Shown here in pieces: positions 19,467-26,136 of a stretch of 64,000 bases of DNA. Origin of the DNA: Escherichia phage saus132; sequence record NC_047884.1; one strand, 5' to 3'. Under the pieces are notes generated by a model, which was given only the letters and a program-made list of their open reading frames with translations, had not been told where the DNA came from and did no database searches. The stretch's first letter is position 1. Each line of letters starts with the position of its first letter. The position numbers and the translations under genes were made by a program.

Positions 19467-19757
19467 TTAATCTTCTGGATTATCTTCCAGGAAGTTTTTG
19501 ATTGCATCGTGCATAGTTTCTTTACGAAGCTGACGACCAATCAGAATGTGGTTGGCTTCCACACGACCATTAGGGAGACGATCTGCTAGAACTACTACAG
19601 GAACCTGACGAACGCCAAATTTCTGCATAAGTTCTGTGTTATCAGTCTCTTTATGAACTTCTAGACTGTAGTCCTGTACTACTTTATCGAATACAGGCTC
19701 GAACATTTTGCACGGATTGCAGGTAGATCCCTTTAATAGATATACTAATTTACTCAT
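19467..19757 (-). CDS. thioredoxin-like protein
   Basis: CxxC motif STCNPCK; start set to the in-frame ATG that avoids overlap with the upstream HNH gene. Confidence 0.45.
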   Translation of the reverse strand: MSKLVYLLKGSTCNPCKMFEPVFDKVVQDYSLEVHKETDNTELMQKFGVRQVPVVVLADRLPNGRVEANHILIGRQLRKETMHDAIKNFLEDNPED

Positions 19758-20277
19758 GTTTATCTCCTTTAAATGGTTCATATAGGGCAAATTCCCCAAA
19801 TAATTCAAATCTTAACTCATTGGCAGTTTCTACAGCATCTTTGAGGTTTGTGAAGTATCCTCCCGAGTAGGATTTACCATCTTTCATAACCTGTACTTGC
19901 CATTTACATGTTTTCTTTGTCCAATATACGTTCTTATATCCAGAACTATTGTTCGAATACTTTAACGCATTAGCACCATTTTGAGAGACTGTAGCTTCTC
20001 GTAGGTTAAGCCATTTATTATCAGACCTAACTCTGTTTTCGTGGTCTACTCTTGCAGGCATATAGCCTTCCATGTAAAGAAAGGCTAATCTATGTGCCCC
20101 ATGCACTTCAGAATCAACAGTAATATTGATATAACCGTTATTTTGAGGATTGCCAGCAATTTTTCCTGCAAATTGCTTGTTAAAACCACTTCTATCTACC
20201 TTTCGGCTCTTCCATATAAATATCCCTGTATCTGGATTGTACTCTAGAAGTTCCTTCAATCTTTCTTGGGTAATCAC
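19750..20277 (-). CDS. HNH homing endonuclease
   Basis: 175 aa; same N-terminal and HNH motifs. Confidence 0.65.
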   Translation of the reverse strand: MITQERLKELLEYNPDTGIFIWKSRKVDRSGFNKQFAGKIAGNPQNNGYINITVDSEVHGAHRLAFLYMEGYMPARVDHENRVRSDNKWLNLREATVSQNGANALKYSNNSSGYKNVYWTKKTCKWQVQVMKDGKSYSGGYFTNLKDAVETANELRFELFGEFALYEPFKGDKHE

Positions 20278-20751: not shown

Positions 20752-21174
20752 TTATATTAGTGTGCTTGATGTGGGGAATCTCTTCCTAACTAAGTACATA
20801 GTTATTGGATATATTGAATACATAAGTATAGGGGAGAAAAGGGTGGAATAAGCCGTGACTCCCCCAGCTAACATTAGTGGTATCAATGCTAGAGTAAGGG
20901 CCATAAGAATCATACCGAATGTGACAGCCAGGGCTACTGTGATGCAGTTTTCTAACTCCATCCAAAGCCAACAATATTTCGTATTTCTCTGGCAGTTGCA
21001 TTTGCAAACGCCGAATGTGCCCATAATTATATACTCTAGCCCATGAACGACTTTCTTTAATGTATCATTTTGGGTAACTAGTGCGACAACAGTGAGAATT
21101 ATCATTAAGATGAAAACTACTAGACTTATTTTCCATACTCCTAGTAATATCATGGTGAATAGTTCTGCAAACAT
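20752..21174 (-). CDS. membrane protein
   Basis: 140 aa, several TM-like segments. Confidence 0.45.
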   Translation of the reverse strand: MFAELFTMILLGVWKISLVVFILMIILTVVALVTQNDTLKKVVHGLEYIIMGTFGVCKCNCQRNTKYCWLWMELENCITVALAVTFGMILMALTLALIPLMLAGGVTAYSTLFSPILMYSIYPITMYLVRKRFPTSSTLI

Positions 21175-21249: not shown

Positions 21250-21663
21250 TCAGACTAATTCTACGTGACCACCGTCGTAAGTACCACGATCGATCTCATC
21301 ATGATAATCACCAGAACTATTCCAGTCGGCACCAAAACGAAGTTTGATACCAAGTTCCTTACCGGCTTGTTCAAAAGCCTTCTTAACAGCCCAAAATGCT
21401 TCCAGATCTTTCCAATCAATCTTACCATTAATATATGGTGCAAAATCTATAGCGTCTCCAGTTACATGCTTACTTTTGCTAGGGTCTTTCAAGAATGAAG
21501 TACCATTAGCAATATTTTGGGCACTTTGTGCTACTGTACGAATACCTTGTACGATTGTGAAATCGTATGGGGATAGTTCTAAAGCCCTACGAGCTACCTT
21601 TTGTAGCTCGGGCTTAACAGTTGCTAATTGTTTTTCGCTATTTTTACCAAATTTAAAACTCAT
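21250..21663 (-). CDS. lys: endolysin (L-alanyl-D-glutamate peptidase type)
   Basis: 137 aa; matches recalled T5 endolysin; SKHVTGDAIDF and GGHVEL metal-site-like motifs. Confidence 0.65.
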   Translation of the reverse strand: MSFKFGKNSEKQLATVKPELQKVARRALELSPYDFTIVQGIRTVAQSAQNIANGTSFLKDPSKSKHVTGDAIDFAPYINGKIDWKDLEAFWAVKKAFEQAGKELGIKLRFGADWNSSGDYHDEIDRGTYDGGHVELV

Positions 21664-22316
21664 ATAGATCTACCTAATGATCTCCGTTGTGGGGAACAGA
21701 GCTTTGCTAAGTACTCGTTAAATTGTTCCGAATCAGCTGTATCTACGGGTTTATCCTTCCATGCAATACCTATGTATCCAGCATAGATATTATTTAGGTT
21801 GAAATATGGACAAGTGTAGACGTAATTAAAAGTAATGTTCTTAAACGCTGGTATATTTGACCCCGTATATTTATTTACTTTTACACTTAAATCCGCAGCG
21901 TAGTTAAAGCCTTCCAGGTGACGTCTATAAAGTTCAGACGTCTTATTTACTGCTTTATCGGCCAAGTCAGCCCTATCCAATTGCGCATTGCTTTCCCATG
22001 CAATAATGTTTGAATAATCATTTATAGCATCTGGTTTATACTTTACTACAAAAACGGCATCCGCACCAGTCTGGGAGAAAAGAACCATACTCTTTTCTCG
22101 TGCTACATTAGGAAAGTTATCTATCCTTTGGGTTTGAACATCCTGTAAAACCGAAGACGTGGAGAAAGTCTTTAAAAATGACATCACCTCGCTAGTGTTA
22201 CTTACAAACAAGAAAATAATGACAGCAACTAAGATAGTTAGCAGACGTTTTAGTAGTGAAGCTGGATCTTTCGCTTCTTGTAGCAGTATCGTTAATAGTT
22301 GTATAAACTTTTCCAC
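21660..22316 (-). CDS. holin-like membrane protein
   Basis: 218 aa with N-terminal TM segment, immediately upstream of endolysin with overlapping stop/start. Confidence 0.4.
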   Translation of the reverse strand: MEKFIQLLTILLQEAKDPASLLKRLLTILVAVIIFLFVSNTSEVMSFLKTFSTSSVLQDVQTQRIDNFPNVAREKSMVLFSQTGADAVFVVKYKPDAINDYSNIIAWESNAQLDRADLADKAVNKTSELYRRHLEGFNYAADLSVKVNKYTGSNIPAFKNITFNYVYTCPYFNLNNIYAGYIGIAWKDKPVDTADSEQFNEYLAKLCSPQRRSLGRSI

Positions 22317-22430
22317 TTGTAACCTCCTCTAACCACTACCATTATACTAATTCTAGAGTAAAATTACAATGTGTTTTTTAAGATCACTTCTGGAGCACAA
22401 TTTTTTGTCGTTGTCAAGAAGAATTTTAGG

Positions 22431-22461
22431 CAAAAGAAAAGCCAGAGTCGTTAAACTCTGG
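22431..22461 (-). terminator. putative intrinsic terminator
   Basis: 8-bp stem GCCAGAGT..ACTCTGGC with A/T run, downstream of the ClpP-like gene. Confidence 0.5.
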
Positions 22462-22472
22462 CTTAAAACTAC

Positions 22473-23084: not shown

Positions 23085-23837
23085 TTATCCAACTAGTGGT
23101 TCTAGCTCTAAGTCACAGAAGTGGTACACATCGGTACGAAGTGCATCAAGTCCGTTGAAGGTATTCTCAAATTTATGAGAAATGTATTTTTCAGGAATAC
23201 CGCTTTCAGACGGATGATCTGTCTCGATGCGATACTTATTAGTAATACCAGATTCAACCTTAATAAGTATGGAATCCATATCTAGAGTATTGGATTCCAT
23301 GATTAGCTCTCCCTCATTTGGAAAACGCACATCGGTAACGATTGCGACGTCTGGGTCGTCTTTATCGATGGATTGCTCCAGAATTATGAGCCAAATGCGT
23401 TCATGCACCAGCTGCCTTCCTAACTCAGTACCTACAAGCTGTAGCATTTTTCTTGGGGAGATAAATACGCTATACAGCGCATCATCAGCTTGCCCAATTA
23501 ACTGCTGAGGATCAAGGTATTTTCCTTCAAAAATAGGCCAAACGTACGAGAAGTCCTCAAACTTATCGATACCATACTTAAACCATACGTCTCTAGCTCG
23601 CTCCAGCTGAGATTGTGTGACCGTAAACCATTGGTCAATCTCCTTTCCCCTGCGCTCTCCCAGAAACTCTGGAGTTACCCCGAGGATTACGGATGCAAGT
23701 TCGTAAACGGGTTTAGCAAAACTGTAACGACGGGATAAACACGTTGGGAACGTGTCATTACACCAGTCAATCATTAATTCTGCAACGGTATCTTTTCCCG
23801 CACCAGCCTCACCATGTAAACCGACTAATACTGACAT
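23085..23837 (-). CDS. dnk: deoxynucleoside monophosphate kinase
   Basis: 250 aa; Walker A GEAGAGKDT near N-terminus. Confidence 0.55.
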   Translation of the reverse strand: MSVLVGLHGEAGAGKDTVAELMIDWCNDTFPTCLSRRYSFAKPVYELASVILGVTPEFLGERRGKEIDQWFTVTQSQLERARDVWFKYGIDKFEDFSYVWPIFEGKYLDPQQLIGQADDALYSVFISPRKMLQLVGTELGRQLVHERIWLIILEQSIDKDDPDVAIVTDVRFPNEGELIMESNTLDMDSILIKVESGITNKYRIETDHPSESGIPEKYISHKFENTFNGLDALRTDVYHFCDLELEPLVG

Positions 23838-24190
23838 TAATCTTTCCTATTTGTAATGGGTGGATAGTAAACTAAGCAACGTTTTTCTTGTAAATCTTGA
23901 CGATAGAAGCAAACCATACCAGTCAGTCGTGAAATGTAAGAGTAAACTGCTTCCTCGCATTTTGCTTTTGCATTCCAATCTTTGTAAGGTACAACAACTA
24001 CTACGCCATCTTCACCATTTGTAGCTAATTTATTTTCGAATTTGAAATCAAAACTACACGGCTGAAGTCCTTTAGGCCAATCTACATGAGCTTGCTTTAA
24101 CTCATGGGATGGCTCCGGTTTTATTTCTTCTGCACAGCCTGTGATTGTGATTGCGGCTGCAAGCAGTACTCCAAGTTTCCAGTTAAACAC
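23837..24190 (-). CDS. lipoprotein (o-spanin-like)
   Basis: signal peptide with lipobox ITGC; 117 aa; 5' end overlaps the 3' end of upstream ORF in another frame. Confidence 0.4.
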   Translation of the reverse strand: MFNWKLGVLLAAAITITGCAEEIKPEPSHELKQAHVDWPKGLQPCSFDFKFENKLATNGEDGVVVVVPYKDWNAKAKCEEAVYSYISRLTGMVCFYRQDLQEKRCLVYYPPITNRKD

Positions 24191-24564
24191 GCTAATCTTT
24201 CCTCGAACTCTTTATTCTGCTTTTTAGCAATTAATGTTACCAATCCAGGCTTTGCAGCGATAATATCTTGACGACTAAGAGCTTTATCTAACTGCTTAAT
24301 CTTTTTGTCTAGATCTGCTTGCGAAATATTATTCATTGTGAAATACTGATTCATTCGAGTCTCACGAAGTTCACTCTCAGCTTTCACCTTATTAAGGGAG
24401 GTTTCTAGAGAAGAGATTTTTTTAGTAGCTACCGCAAGATCTCCCGCTAAAGTCTCCACTTTATCTACTAAGTGATAAGCACCGAATCCGATACCTATCG
24501 CAAGACCAGCTCCCAGGATATACCACTTACCTTGCCATAGAGAACTAATAAAGTTTTTTATCAT
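24121..24564 (-). CDS. membrane-anchored coiled-coil protein (i-spanin-like)
   Basis: 147 aa; N-terminal TM then helical region; overlaps the lipoprotein ORF. Confidence 0.4.
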   Translation of the reverse strand: MIKNFISSLWQGKWYILGAGLAIGIGFGAYHLVDKVETLAGDLAVATKKISSLETSLNKVKAESELRETRMNQYFTMNNISQADLDKKIKQLDKALSRQDIIAAKPGLVTLIAKKQNKEFEERLACLTGNLEYCLQPQSQSQAVQKK

Positions 24565-25241
24565 CTTTTCATATTCCTGAATGACGTAACCGTATCAAAT
24601 CCATGTGCTGCTAGGCGGTCTTTATCAGAAATGGTAATAATATCTGGTTCTCCTGTTCCAAGCACGCCCCAGATATATTGTTCAATTCTCTGGTGTAATC
24701 GATATAGGTTGCTTTCAATTTCCTGCCACGGAATACCTGATAGGTGTAGACGCGGATTAGTTATAACCTTGAAGTATTTATTGTTATCTTTATCATTTGG
24801 AACTAATGAATCTAGAACTGCTAACGGTACTCTTAGCTCAGATAAGGCTTCTTTAGCTTTCGGGGTAACTTCATCTTGCCATGATAAGATAGACTCTTTT
24901 GGCTTCCCTCTATTTATATCTAGTAGAGAAAATCCCGTTGACCATCCATTCTCTTTCAAAACTTCTAATGCTTTGTCTAGGTTGAAAGTTTTTACTTGGG
25001 TATCCAATACATCAATATGGTACATCCAGTAAATCTCTCCTGCTAGGAAAAACGGTAGAATTTTAAAGTAGCCTTTCTTTTCACCAACACGAGCAATCAT
25101 ACGTTCTTGCATAATCATGTAGTTGCCATCATCTGGAGCCTTTATTATTAGCTCTTCAGTTTTACGCTCCCAAGCACGATCGGGGTCAAACAAGCTGTTC
25201 TGCAAATCATATACATCTGCCCATTTACTAATAATTCTCAT
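24561..25241 (-). CDS. hypothetical protein
   Basis: 226-aa ORF with promoter leader and RBS. Confidence 0.5.
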   Translation of the reverse strand: MRIISKWADVYDLQNSLFDPDRAWERKTEELIIKAPDDGNYMIMQERMIARVGEKKGYFKILPFFLAGEIYWMYHIDVLDTQVKTFNLDKALEVLKENGWSTGFSLLDINRGKPKESILSWQDEVTPKAKEALSELRVPLAVLDSLVPNDKDNNKYFKVITNPRLHLSGIPWQEIESNLYRLHQRIEQYIWGVLGTGEPDIITISDKDRLAAHGFDTVTSFRNMKR

Positions 25242-25393
25242 ATTTAATCCTCTTGCCTCAATCTATAAACATATTATATAATACTTGTGGCATCTGAGCA
25301 ACTGAAATTTTATTACAAAAAATAGCCCAGTCGCAAAATTGCAGGCTGGGCTTTGTCATTATTATTCTTGCTAGGAGGTGATTATCATCACTC

Positions 25394-25735
25394 TTATTTA
25401 CTTAATTCTCTAGCACGACGTAGCGATCCAGCGGTTCTCCATAGTTTAATGTCGTCAATAACTTCTTTATAGGGCGCAATAGTAAGACCTAGCGGTCCTG
25501 CTACCAACAGTCCAAAGAAACCAATTACACGCATGTAGAGCAAGCATTCTTTGGGAGTCATTGACTGGACAGCCTGCCTTTCCTCATCACTGTCGAACTC
25601 GTATTCTTGATCGTCTAAACGTAGGTACTTAATAAACCATTCAGCAGAATATTCATCCAGATGACGAATAACTGCAATAGCATAGCCTAAACCAATAATA
25701 AACCATGCTGCTACAATGAATAAAATAAAGCTCAT
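25394..25735 (-). CDS. membrane protein
   Basis: 113 aa, two to three TM segments. Confidence 0.45.
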   Translation of the reverse strand: MSFILFIVAAWFIIGLGYAIAVIRHLDEYSAEWFIKYLRLDDQEYEFDSDEERQAVQSMTPKECLLYMRVIGFFGLLVAGPLGLTIAPYKEVIDDIKLWRTAGSLRRARELSK

Positions 25736-25851: not shown

Positions 25852-26136
25852 TTACTTGCTCTGCATTTCAGCACGGAATTTTTTCATCTTACGAGTTTTA
25901 CGGAAGAAGAAATAAGTAGCTACTGGCCCGAACAAGGTGTCCATAATAAGCATACCTGACATAATGAATTTGAACATCTTTTCATCGTCAAATCCTGCTA
26001 ATTCTGGTGGACGATATTTGTTTATAACATAAAGAATAACATCTTTATTTTTAGAGATATACAGATCATCAATCAGACTGTAAATCGCGACAACTGCACC
26101 AATAACAAACCACAAAGCAAATGGAGAGATAATCAT
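25852..26136 (-). CDS. small membrane protein
   Basis: 94 aa. Confidence 0.45.
   Translation of the reverse strand: MIISPFALWFVIGAVVAIYSLIDDLYISKNKDVILYVINKYRPPELAGFDDEKMFKFIMSGMLIMDTLFGPVATYFFFRKTRKMKKFRAEMQSK

What the first reader, a model, noticed from the sequence alone, without database searches (positions are those of the whole stretch)
23837..24564. Overlapping membrane-protein and lipoprotein ORFs resembling an i-spanin/o-spanin pair
A 147-aa N-terminally anchored coiled-coil protein overlaps by 70 nt, in a different frame, a 117-aa lipoprotein with lipobox ITGC. This is the classic overlapped spanin architecture, although it is about 2 kb from the holin-endolysin pair.
Basis: inference. 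Interest (0 to 1): 0.35.

Follow-up and report, generated by a model that had tools for sequence, protein, structure and literature searches.

The report
Known T5-type overlapped spanin gene pair
These two overlapping genes are the already catalogued outer-membrane-breaking "spanin" pair of T5-like phages, so the finding is correct but ordinary; the only practical point is that the lipoprotein gene is missing from the source GenBank record.

Summary
On the minus strand, a 147-aa ORF (24121..24564) overlaps a 117-aa ORF (23837..24190, GTG start) by 70 nt in another frame.

The window is the first 64 kb of Bacteriophage T5-like chee130_1 (MF431736.1, Epseptimavirus). The two proteins are 88% and 90% identical to T5 T5.045 and T5.044. 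Kongari et al. 2018 list these as the "T5" i-spanin and o-spanin families, overlapped by 70 bp. Both hit PHROG "Rz-like spanin" families, and RefSeq relatives annotate both as spanins.

Every sequence criterion I could test is met:
- The first protein has an N-in single transmembrane domain and a helical periplasmic domain.
- The second has lipobox ITGC with Ala at +2.
- Both carry periplasmic cysteines.
- dN/dS is 0.01-0.19 in both frames.
- Both ORFs are present in more than 500 phage genomes.

Both proteins are also distant homologues of T4 PseT.3/PseT.2, which complement lambda Rz/Rz1. The two cysteines essential in T4 PseT.2 are conserved here.

Function in this phage is inferred, not shown. 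I found no direct experiment on a T5-type spanin.

Verdict: already known, low interest. The o-spanin CDS is absent from the source record, and the i-spanin is labelled "hypothetical protein".

The parts
24121..24564 (-). i-spanin gene (147 aa). Inner-membrane subunit, homologue of T5 T5.045 and of T4 PseT.3.
   Evidence: ORF. PHROG 739 'Rz-like spanin', E 1.5e-37. 88% identity to T5.045. BLASTP against T4 PseT.3, E 5e-6. dN/dS 0.01-0.19.
24466..24522 (-). Transmembrane domain of the i-spanin (residues 15-33). The predicted topology is N-in/C-out.
   Evidence: Kyte-Doolittle maximum 1.55 over 19 residues. Two Lys and no acidic residue in the N-terminal flank.
24190..24465 (-). Periplasmic helical, coiled-coil-like domain of the i-spanin (residues 34-125), including the family-invariant K105-P106-x-L108 motif.
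   Evidence: Heptad score 7.5 of 8 at residues 36-63, reached by 0.25% of shuffles. AlphaFold helices at 25-77, 82-97 and 106-127. Invariant columns in the family alignment.
24163..24189 (-). C-x7-C motif of the i-spanin (Cys126, Cys134), encoded inside the overlap.
   Evidence: Cys positions. Conserved in all seven Demerecviridae i-spanins aligned and absent from the T4-type PseT.3 proteins.
23837..24190 (-). o-spanin gene (117 aa precursor, 99 aa mature). Outer-membrane lipoprotein subunit, homologue of T5 T5.044 and of T4 PseT.2. It is not annotated in the source record.
   Evidence: ORF. PHROG 812 'Rz-like spanin', E 5.3e-30. 90% identity to T5.044. BLASTP against T4 PseT.2, E 2e-7. dN/dS 0.07-0.16. 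No CDS at this position in MF431736.1.
24134..24190 (-). [quoted passage not shown] Cys19 would be the lipidated first residue of the mature protein, and +2 is Ala.
   Evidence: Lipobox and PROSITE-like pattern match. G18-C19 invariant in 9 family members, none with Asp at +2.
24121..24190 (-). 70-nt dual-coding overlap. It encodes i-spanin residues 126-147 plus the stop, and o-spanin residues 1-23. It contains a 30-nt block (24131..24160) that is invariant among 8 phages.
   Evidence: Kongari et al. give the same 70-bp overlap for T5.
24200..24204 (-). Shine-Dalgarno sequence GAGGA, 9 nt upstream of the o-spanin GTG start. It lies inside the i-spanin coding sequence.
   Evidence: Conserved in all 8 aligned phages; the start codon is GTG in three of them and ATG in the other five.
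24561..25241 (-). Context: conserved 226-aa gene of unknown function (T5.047 homologue). It is the first gene of the transcription unit, and its TGA stop overlaps the i-spanin ATG (ATGA).
   Evidence: PHROG 4243, unknown function. Syntenic in T5, Shivani, Sugarland and Kamaji.
25273..25354 (-). Context: terminator-like stem-loop (25317..25354), then a promoter-like site (-35 TTGCTC at 25296..25301, -10 TATAAT at 25273..25278) upstream of the 226-aa gene.
   Evidence: The aligned stretch is 91% identical to the T5 stretch annotated as terminator plus promoter before T5.047. These are predictions, not mapped transcript ends.
22439..22464 (-). Context: terminator-like hairpin after the Clp-protease gene. 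It would end the unit orf226 - i-spanin - o-spanin - dnk - clp. A separate promoter-like site (22341..22369) precedes the holin gene.
   Evidence: Aligned to the terminator and promoter annotated in T5.

Best explanation
This is the two-component spanin of a T5-like phage (Epseptimavirus).

The mechanism below is inferred from homology and from the established spanin model. The upstream gene would make a type II inner-membrane protein with a long helical periplasmic domain (the i-spanin). The downstream gene starts inside it in another frame, with its own ribosome-binding site. It would make a lipoprotein that signal peptidase II cleaves at Cys19 and that the Lol pathway sends to the outer membrane, because +2 is Ala (the o-spanin). 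The two subunits would bind through their periplasmic C-terminal parts and span the periplasm through the peptidoglycan mesh. They would be stabilised by disulfide bonds: Cys126 and Cys134 in the i-spanin, and Cys45, 78, 94 and 105 in the o-spanin. Once the T-type holin and the M15 endolysin encoded about 1.5 kb downstream destroy the cell wall, the complexes would be freed. They would then fuse the inner and outer membranes, which is the last step of lysis.

The genes appear to sit in a separate transcription unit with dNMP kinase and a Clp-like protease, as in T5. This fits the model, in which spanins can accumulate harmlessly before the wall is degraded.

Shown here: gene structure, sorting signals, selection in both frames, and family membership. 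Inferred: localisation, complex formation, membrane fusion and timing.
For: - Exact ORF geometry and sorting signals.
- PHROG 739 and 812 'Rz-like spanin', E 1.5e-37 and 5.3e-30.
- Window identical to MF431736.1. Relatives are annotated i-spanin/o-spanin or 'Rz-like spanin' x2.
- 88% and 90% identity to T5 T5.045 and T5.044. Kongari et al. 2018 list these as the T5 spanin families with a 70-bp overlap.
- Homology to T4 PseT.3 and PseT.2. tblastn also hits T4-like spanin genes, annotated pseT.2 in PEi26 and 'Rz-like spanin' in phiP4-3, and the T5 record says the same.
- T4 pseT.3/pseT.2 complement lambda RzamRz1am, and C87 and C98 of PseT.2 are essential (PMC6139136). These cysteines align with the invariant C94 and C105 here.
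- Purifying selection in both frames, and both ORFs intact in 8 of 8 aligned phages.
- Holin (PF11031, E 8e-111) and M15 endolysin nearby on the same strand.
Against: - I found no direct experiment on any T5-family spanin in the held literature. Function rests on roughly 28% identity to the T4 proteins and on architecture.
- There is no Pfam, NCBIfam or PDB match.
- The single-sequence structure model of the o-spanin is low confidence (pLDDT 54).
- Coiled-coil character is strong only for residues about 36-63.
- The genes are not contiguous with the holin-endolysin pair.
Confidence: 0.93

Rival explanations
1. The lipoprotein is not a spanin subunit but an early lipoprotein with another role, such as receptor blocking or superinfection exclusion like T5 Llp or the Cor proteins. 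The upstream bitopic protein would then be an unrelated membrane protein.
For: T5-like phages are known to make an early receptor-blocking lipoprotein, Llp (cited in PMC4342426). The pair lies with dNMP kinase in what appears, by comparison with predicted T5 signals, to be a separate transcription unit from the holin and endolysin genes.
Against: The only PHROG hit at E<=0.01 is spanin family 812. The protein is homologous to T4 PseT.2, including the two functionally essential cysteines. The i- and o-genes stay paired in every Demerecviridae genome examined, even where a homing endonuclease gene splits them. I did not compare the protein with Llp directly; as I recall, Llp is a different gene near the receptor-binding protein gene.
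Confidence: 0.03
2. The pair descends from spanins but contributes little to lysis in this phage. Outer-membrane disruption would be achieved otherwise, for example by a disruptin-like peptide or by shear.
For: No T5-type spanin has been tested directly. Spanin defects in lambda show up only with added divalent cations (conditions described in PMC6139136).
Against: dN/dS of 0.01-0.19 in both genes and retention in more than 500 genomes argue for a maintained function. Lipobox, TMD, cysteines and the KPxL motif are all intact.
Confidence: 0.03
3. The 117-aa ORF is a chance open frame and is not translated. Only the 147-aa gene would be real, as the source GenBank record implies.
For: MF431736.1 and many other records annotate no CDS there. 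The start codon is GTG.
Against: The frame stays open in only 3 of 5000 shuffles. A Shine-Dalgarno GAGGA lies at -9. The ORF exactly fills the gap up to the dnk start (TAATG junction). dN/dS is 0.07-0.16, with variable sites at 44 third versus 13 first and 9 second codon positions. The start is ATG at the same position in T5 and four other aligned phages. tblastn covers at least 80% of the ORF in 550 records.
Confidence: 0.01

Closest known systems
Phage T5 spanins T5.045 (i-spanin) and T5.044 (o-spanin): the 'T5' i- and o-spanin families of Kongari et al. 2018
   Same: 88% and 90% amino-acid identity. Same lengths (147 and 117 aa), same 70-nt overlap, same flanking genes (T5.047 homologue upstream, dnk and clp downstream), and the same lipobox ITGC.
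   Different: The o-spanin start is GTG here and ATG in T5. T5 has the homing endonuclease gene hegF between T5.047 and the i-spanin, which is absent here. Nothing differs in function as far as the sequence shows.
Phage T4 PseT.3 / PseT.2 (separated two-component spanin, shown to complement lambda Rz/Rz1)
   Same: Detectable homology of both subunits (28-29% identity, E 5e-6 and 2e-7). The KPGLV motif of the i-spanin and the C-terminal Cys pair of the o-spanin are shared. Both pairs lie away from the holin and endolysin genes, and both phage groups use a T-type holin.
   Different: The T4 genes count as separated, whereas these overlap by 70 nt. [quoted passage not shown] This o-spanin has two extra cysteines (C45, C78) and a 12-residue C-terminal extension.
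Phage lambda Rz / Rz1 (prototype two-component spanin)
   Same: The same two-protein logic: a type II inner-membrane protein with a helical periplasmic domain plus an outer-membrane lipoprotein encoded out of frame in shared DNA. Periplasmic cysteines are present in both subunits.
   Different: No sequence similarity was detected, and there is no Pfam match at all. Rz1 is fully embedded in Rz, and its mature form is 40 aa and proline-rich. Here the o-spanin is only overlapped, its mature form is 99 aa, and it is predicted to have strands and a helix. The lambda genes sit in the lysis cassette.
Salmonella phage Shivani / phiR201 spanins (the same family in separated architecture)
   Same: Homologous i- and o-spanins (90% and 86% identity) in the same genomic neighbourhood.
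   Different: In Shivani, a roughly 700-bp endonuclease gene lies between the two genes. Its i-spanin C-terminal tail and the first residues of its o-spanin signal peptide differ from those here. phiR201 was not fetched here; it is listed on the authority of Kongari et al..

Membership tests
Two-component spanin (class as defined by Summer et al. 2007 and Kongari et al. 2018) | i-spanin: a single N-terminal transmembrane domain (N-in, C-out) followed by a largely alpha-helical periplasmic domain | tested here: met
   TMD at residues 15-33 with a positive N-terminal flank. Heptad pattern. AlphaFold helices at 25-77, 82-97 and 106-127 (moderate confidence).
Two-component spanin (class as defined by Summer et al. 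2007 and Kongari et al. 2018) | o-spanin: signal peptidase II signal sequence with a lipobox and an invariant Cys | tested here: met
   MFNWKLGVLLAAAITITGC. Lipobox regex and PROSITE-like pattern match. G-C invariant in 9 homologues.
Two-component spanin (class as defined by Summer et al. 2007 and Kongari et al. 2018) | Outer-membrane sorting: no Asp at +2 after the lipidated Cys | tested here: met
   +2 is Ala here. In 9 homologues +2 is A, N or S, never D. Actual localisation was not tested.
Two-component spanin (class as defined by Summer et al. 2007 and Kongari et al. 2018) | o-spanin gene embedded in, overlapping, or immediately downstream of the i-spanin gene on the same strand | tested here: met
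   70-nt overlap, same strand, different frame.
Two-component spanin (class as defined by Summer et al. 2007 and Kongari et al. 2018) | At least one periplasmic cysteine in the complex (507 of 528 known pairs) | tested here: met
   Two Cys in the i-spanin and four in the mature o-spanin besides the lipidated Cys19. Statistic from PMC6139136.
Two-component spanin (class as defined by Summer et al. 2007 and Kongari et al. 2018) | Encoded by a phage of a Gram-negative host that also has a holin and an endolysin | tested here: met
   T5-like phage whose near-identical relatives infect Salmonella and E. coli. Holin PF11031 and an M15 peptidase endolysin at 21250..22316.
Two-component spanin (class as defined by Summer et al. 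2007 and Kongari et al. 2018) | Required for outer-membrane disruption; complements lambda Rz/Rz1 nonsense mutants | not testable with these tools
   Needs genetics. Shown only for the T4 homologues (PMC6139136).
Two-component spanin (class as defined by Summer et al. 2007 and Kongari et al. 2018) | Physical complex of the two subunits through their periplasmic C-terminal regions | not testable with these tools
   No complex prediction or biochemistry is available here.
T5 i-spanin and o-spanin families (Kongari et al. 2018: at least 40% identity over at least 40% of the length) | Identity to a family member above the threshold, for both subunits | tested here: met
   88% to T5.045 and 90% to T5.044 over the full length. 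Family definition and member list.
T5 i-spanin and o-spanin families (Kongari et al. 2018: at least 40% identity over at least 40% of the length) | Overlapped architecture with a 70-bp overlap (7 of the 9 listed members are overlapped) | tested here: met
   70 nt here and in the seven other overlapped relatives examined. The paper states 70 bp for T5.
PHROG 739 and PHROG 812 ('Rz-like spanin') | Significant profile match over most of the profile | tested here: met
   E 1.5e-37 (profile positions 5-122 of 122) and E 5.3e-30 (1-100 of 102).
T4 PseT.3/PseT.2 spanin family | Sequence homology of both subunits, with conservation of the Cys pair essential in PseT.2 | tested here: met
   BLASTP E 5e-6 and 2e-7. 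C94 and C105 align with T4 C87 and C98. Identity of about 28% is below Kongari's 40% family threshold, so this is the same superfamily but not the same family.
T4 PseT.3/PseT.2 spanin family | Separated gene architecture and a cysteine-free i-spanin | tested here: not met
   Overlapped here, and the i-spanin has C126 and C134.
Lambda Rz/Rz1 family | Sequence match to the lambda-type Rz and Rz1 families; o-spanin fully embedded | tested here: not met
   No Pfam family reached its cut-off for either protein. The architecture is overlapped, not embedded. It works like Rz/Rz1 but is not a member of that family.
Receptor-blocking or superinfection-exclusion lipoproteins (T5 Llp, Cor) | Sequence match to such a family | tested here: not met
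   The PHROG scan at E<=0.01 returned only spanin family 812. No direct comparison with the Llp sequence was made.

The most novel reading that the evidence does not exclude
The most novel reading still open has two parts. First, the Demerecviridae spanin may use a different covalent architecture from both lambda and T4. It has a conserved C-x7-C at the i-spanin C-terminus, encoded inside the overlap, and four cysteines in a larger, apparently folded o-spanin domain. Second, the conserved 226-aa gene that is translationally coupled upstream (T5.047 homologue) may be an accessory factor of this spanin. Nothing here tests either idea. Both rest only on conservation and synteny.
Probability: 0.07. 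Interest if true: 0.3.

Novelty: already known. Interest (0 to 1): 0.06.

Why it matters
It matters little for discovery. The T5 spanin pair, its 70-bp overlap and its relation to the T4 spanins are all in the literature and in RefSeq annotation.

The practical value is in annotation:
- The o-spanin CDS is missing from MF431736.1 and from many sibling records.
- The i-spanin is labelled 'hypothetical protein' there.
- Some records mislabel neighbouring genes, for example as 'putative terminase', or call the T5.047 homologue 'i-spanin'.

T5-like Salmonella and E. coli phages are widely proposed for food biocontrol, so a complete lysis-gene annotation is useful. The T5-type spanin also remains untested experimentally.

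Tried and rejected
- Pfam and NCBIfam scans gave nothing above cut-off for either protein. There were only weak coiled-coil-type hits such as FtsL (20 bits against a cut-off of 50), which I read as shared bitopic coiled-coil architecture rather than homology.
- PDB sequence searches found no relative for either spanin or for orf226.
- The single-sequence AlphaFold model of the o-spanin had pLDDT 54. I judged it too poor for a fold search, so I ran none. The i-spanin model (pLDDT 62) was used only for secondary structure.
- My first guess for the T4 pseT region (147-153 kb) was wrong. The correct region was fetched.
- The sigma-70 consensus scan did not exceed shuffles (9 sites found, 12.9 expected) and missed the T5-type promoter. 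I used alignment to the features annotated in T5 instead.
- Literature searches found no direct experiment on T5-family spanins.
- I deliberately did not run the billion-sequence protein searches or the metagenome scans. The phage collection already answered the question.
- The chance-ORF and Llp-like readings were considered and rejected, as set out under the rival explanations.

Full report
**Observation.** The six-frame ORF list and the sequence itself show two minus-strand ORFs at exactly the reported coordinates. One runs 24121..24564 (ATG, 147 aa) and the other 23837..24190 (GTG, 117 aa). They share 24121..24190, which is 70 nt, in different frames.

- The 147-aa protein has one hydrophobic segment at residues 15-33, with two lysines and no acidic residue before it. 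This predicts an N-in/C-out orientation.
- Its periplasmic part is rich in K, L, A, Q and E. A heptad a/d pattern at residues 36-63 is reached by 0.25% of shuffles.
- A single-sequence AlphaFold model (mean pLDDT 62) gives a helix at 25-77, with pLDDT 83-90 over residues 41-70, and further helices up to residue 127.
- The 117-aa protein begins MFNWKLGVLLAAAITITGC|AEE. This is a signal peptidase II signal with lipobox ITGC and Ala at +2.
- A GAGGA lies 9 nt upstream of its GTG.
- The upstream gene's TGA stop overlaps the i-spanin ATG (ATGA). The o-spanin TAA overlaps the dNMP kinase ATG (TAATG).

**Is it more than chance?** Yes.

- With 39% G+C, 117 open codons have a probability of about 3e-4. 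The frame stays open from the i-spanin stop to the dnk start in 3 of 5000 shuffles.
- In eight Markadamsvirinae phages both ORFs are intact with identical 728-nt geometry and no indels. The o-spanin start is ATG or GTG at the same position, and that change is synonymous in the i-spanin frame.
- Outside the overlap, dN/dS against the window is 0.01-0.19 for the i-gene and 0.07-0.16 for the o-gene.
- Variable sites by codon position 1/2/3 number 22/11/51 in the i-frame and 13/9/44 in the o-frame.
- Inside the overlap, a 30-nt block (24131..24160) is invariant. It encodes the lipobox region in one frame and the i-spanin tail in the other.
- tblastn finds the o-ORF in 555 phage records (550 with at least 80% coverage) and the i-ORF in 538.

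**Identity of the sequence.** The region is 100% identical, at the same coordinates, to Bacteriophage T5-like chee130_1 (MF431736.1; Demerecviridae, Markadamsvirinae, Epseptimavirus). The window is therefore the first 64 kb of that genome. In that record the 147-aa gene is a 'hypothetical protein' and the 117-aa gene is not annotated at all. RefSeq Salmonella phage S114 (99.4% identical) annotates both as 'Rz-like spanin' and cross-references T5p044 and T5p043. Several other relatives use 'i-spanin' and 'o-spanin'.

**Family evidence.**

- PHROG profiles 739 and 812, both named 'Rz-like spanin', match at E 1.5e-37 and 5.3e-30 over nearly the full profile length.
- The proteins are 88% and 90% identical to T5 T5.045 and T5.044.
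- Kongari et al. 2018 (PMC6139136) list a 'T5' i-spanin family and a 'T5' o-spanin family (T5, EPS7, Stitch, SPC35, AKFV33, FFH1, DT57C and others).
- They state that seven members are overlapped and that 'the T5 spanins overlap by 70 bp'. They also state that Shivani and phiR201 have the same genes split by a roughly 700-bp homing-endonuclease gene. I confirmed the Shivani arrangement and found the same in LmqsSP1.
- More distant Demerecviridae keep the pair next to dnk and clp: Sugarland, Kamaji, Stubb and PR1.

**Link to an experimentally tested system.**

- The T5 GenBank record already notes similarity of T5.045 and T5.044 to T4 PseT.3 and PseT.2.
- I confirmed this directly. The o-spanin against T4 PseT.2 gives 29% identity, E 2e-7. 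The i-spanin against PseT.3 gives 28% identity, E 5e-6.
- At database level, tblastn with the o-spanin also reaches the T4-like phages phiP4-3 (7e-8) and PEi26 pseT.2 (4e-4).
- In the nine-member alignments the invariant positions of the o-spanin are the lipobox G-C, P39, C94, Y96, E102 and C105. Those of the i-spanin are K105, P106 and L108.
- Kongari et al. showed that T4 pseT.3/pseT.2 complement the lambda RzamRz1am lysis defect and that PseT.2 C87 and C98 are both essential. These two cysteines align with C94 and C105 here.
- Differences from T4: all seven Demerecviridae i-spanins aligned carry a C-terminal C-x7-C (C126, C134) that the T4-type proteins lack. Most Demerecviridae o-spanins have two further cysteines (C45, C78).

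**Context.** All genes from 25241 down to 21250 are on the minus strand. In order they are orf226 (PHROG 4243, unknown function), i-spanin, o-spanin, dNMP kinase, a Clp-like protease, holin (PF11031 T-holin, E 8e-111) and an M15 peptidase endolysin. By alignment to the features annotated in T5, a terminator plus promoter precede orf226. A terminator (22439..22464) and a separate promoter (22341..22369) lie between clp and the holin gene. The spanins therefore appear to be transcribed with dnk rather than with the holin and endolysin. These signals are predictions only. Separation from the holin-endolysin pair is normal in this family, and T4 spanins are also unlinked from genes t and e.

**Mechanism (inferred).**

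1. The i-spanin would insert in the inner membrane.
2. The o-spanin would be lipidated at Cys19 and sent by Lol to the outer membrane, following the +2 rule (established knowledge).
3. The two would bind through their periplasmic C-terminal regions and be stabilised by disulfide bonds.
4. After the holin and endolysin remove the peptidoglycan, the complexes would fuse the inner and outer membranes. This is the spanin model summarised in PMC6139136.

None of these steps has been tested for a T5-type pair in the papers I could search.

**Rivals.**

- A chance ORF is excluded by the selection and conservation data.
- A different role for the lipoprotein (Llp- or Cor-like) is unsupported. The only profile hit is the spanin family, and the homology is to PseT.2.
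- A spanin relic with little function cannot be excluded without genetics, but it is unlikely given the purifying selection.

**Comparison and verdict.** The pair works like lambda Rz/Rz1 but is not a member of that sequence family: there is no Pfam match and the architecture is overlapped rather than embedded. It is a member of the published T5 spanin families and a distant homologue of the T4 spanins. The feature is already known. Interest is low, apart from the annotation gap in the source record and the fact that T5-type spanins remain experimentally untested.

Noticed in passing
window 23837..24190 (-) and 24121..24564 (-): The source record MF431736.1 has no CDS for the o-spanin and calls the i-spanin 'hypothetical protein'. 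Many sibling records show 'none', 'hypothetical protein' or even 'putative terminase' under the o-spanin match.
   Followed up: yes
window 24561..25241 (-): A conserved 226-aa gene (T5.047 homologue, PHROG 4243, unknown function). It has no Pfam, NCBIfam or PDB match and, by eye, no obvious transmembrane segment. It is translationally coupled (ATGA) to the i-spanin and is the first gene of the same predicted transcription unit. It is syntenic in T5, Shivani, Sugarland and Kamaji. Two records under the i-spanin match list a 'DNA polymerase III subunit epsilon' next to it, which may be this gene, and LmqsSP1 mislabels it 'i-spanin'.
   Followed up: partly
L003:3004-3501 (T5 hegF); L004:1315-2013 (Shivani); L015:1304-1801 and 2207-2905 (LmqsSP1): Homing-endonuclease genes insert on either side of the i-spanin gene in relatives. 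One site is between the T5.047 homologue and the i-spanin. The other is between the i- and o-spanin, which converts the overlapped pair into a separated one. This window has neither insertion.
   Followed up: partly
window 24131..24160: A 30-nt block inside the dual-coding overlap is invariant among 8 phages whose flanking synonymous divergence from the window (dS) is 0.3-1.3 for all but the near-identical S114. It encodes the o-spanin LAAAITITGC and the i-spanin QPQSQSQAV tail.
   Followed up: partly
window 20752..21174 (-): A 140-aa ORF just downstream of the endolysin gene that looks strongly hydrophobic. It lies at the position of T5.039, which the T5 record says contains four transmembrane domains. 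S114 annotates it, but the source record does not.
   Followed up: no
window 25394..25735 (-) and 25852..26136 (-): Two small ORFs (113 and 94 aa) upstream of the spanin unit, at the positions of T5.048 and T5.049, which the T5 record says contain two transmembrane domains each. Function unknown.
   Followed up: no
L008:1082-1576 (Serratia phage Kamaji): An unannotated i-spanin homologue (164 aa) overlaps the annotated 'outer lipoprotein subunit' by 76 nt.
   Followed up: yes
window 19750..20277 (-): A 175-aa ORF from a GTG start. The source record annotates only its C-terminal 103 aa (19750..20061) as 'homing endonuclease', so the annotated start may be too short.
   Followed up: no
window 21250..22316 (-) compared with 23837..24564 (-): The holin and both spanin subunits of this T5-like phage are homologues of T4 proteins (T, PseT.3, PseT.2). 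The endolysin is an unrelated M15 peptidase rather than a T4-type lysozyme.
   Followed up: partly
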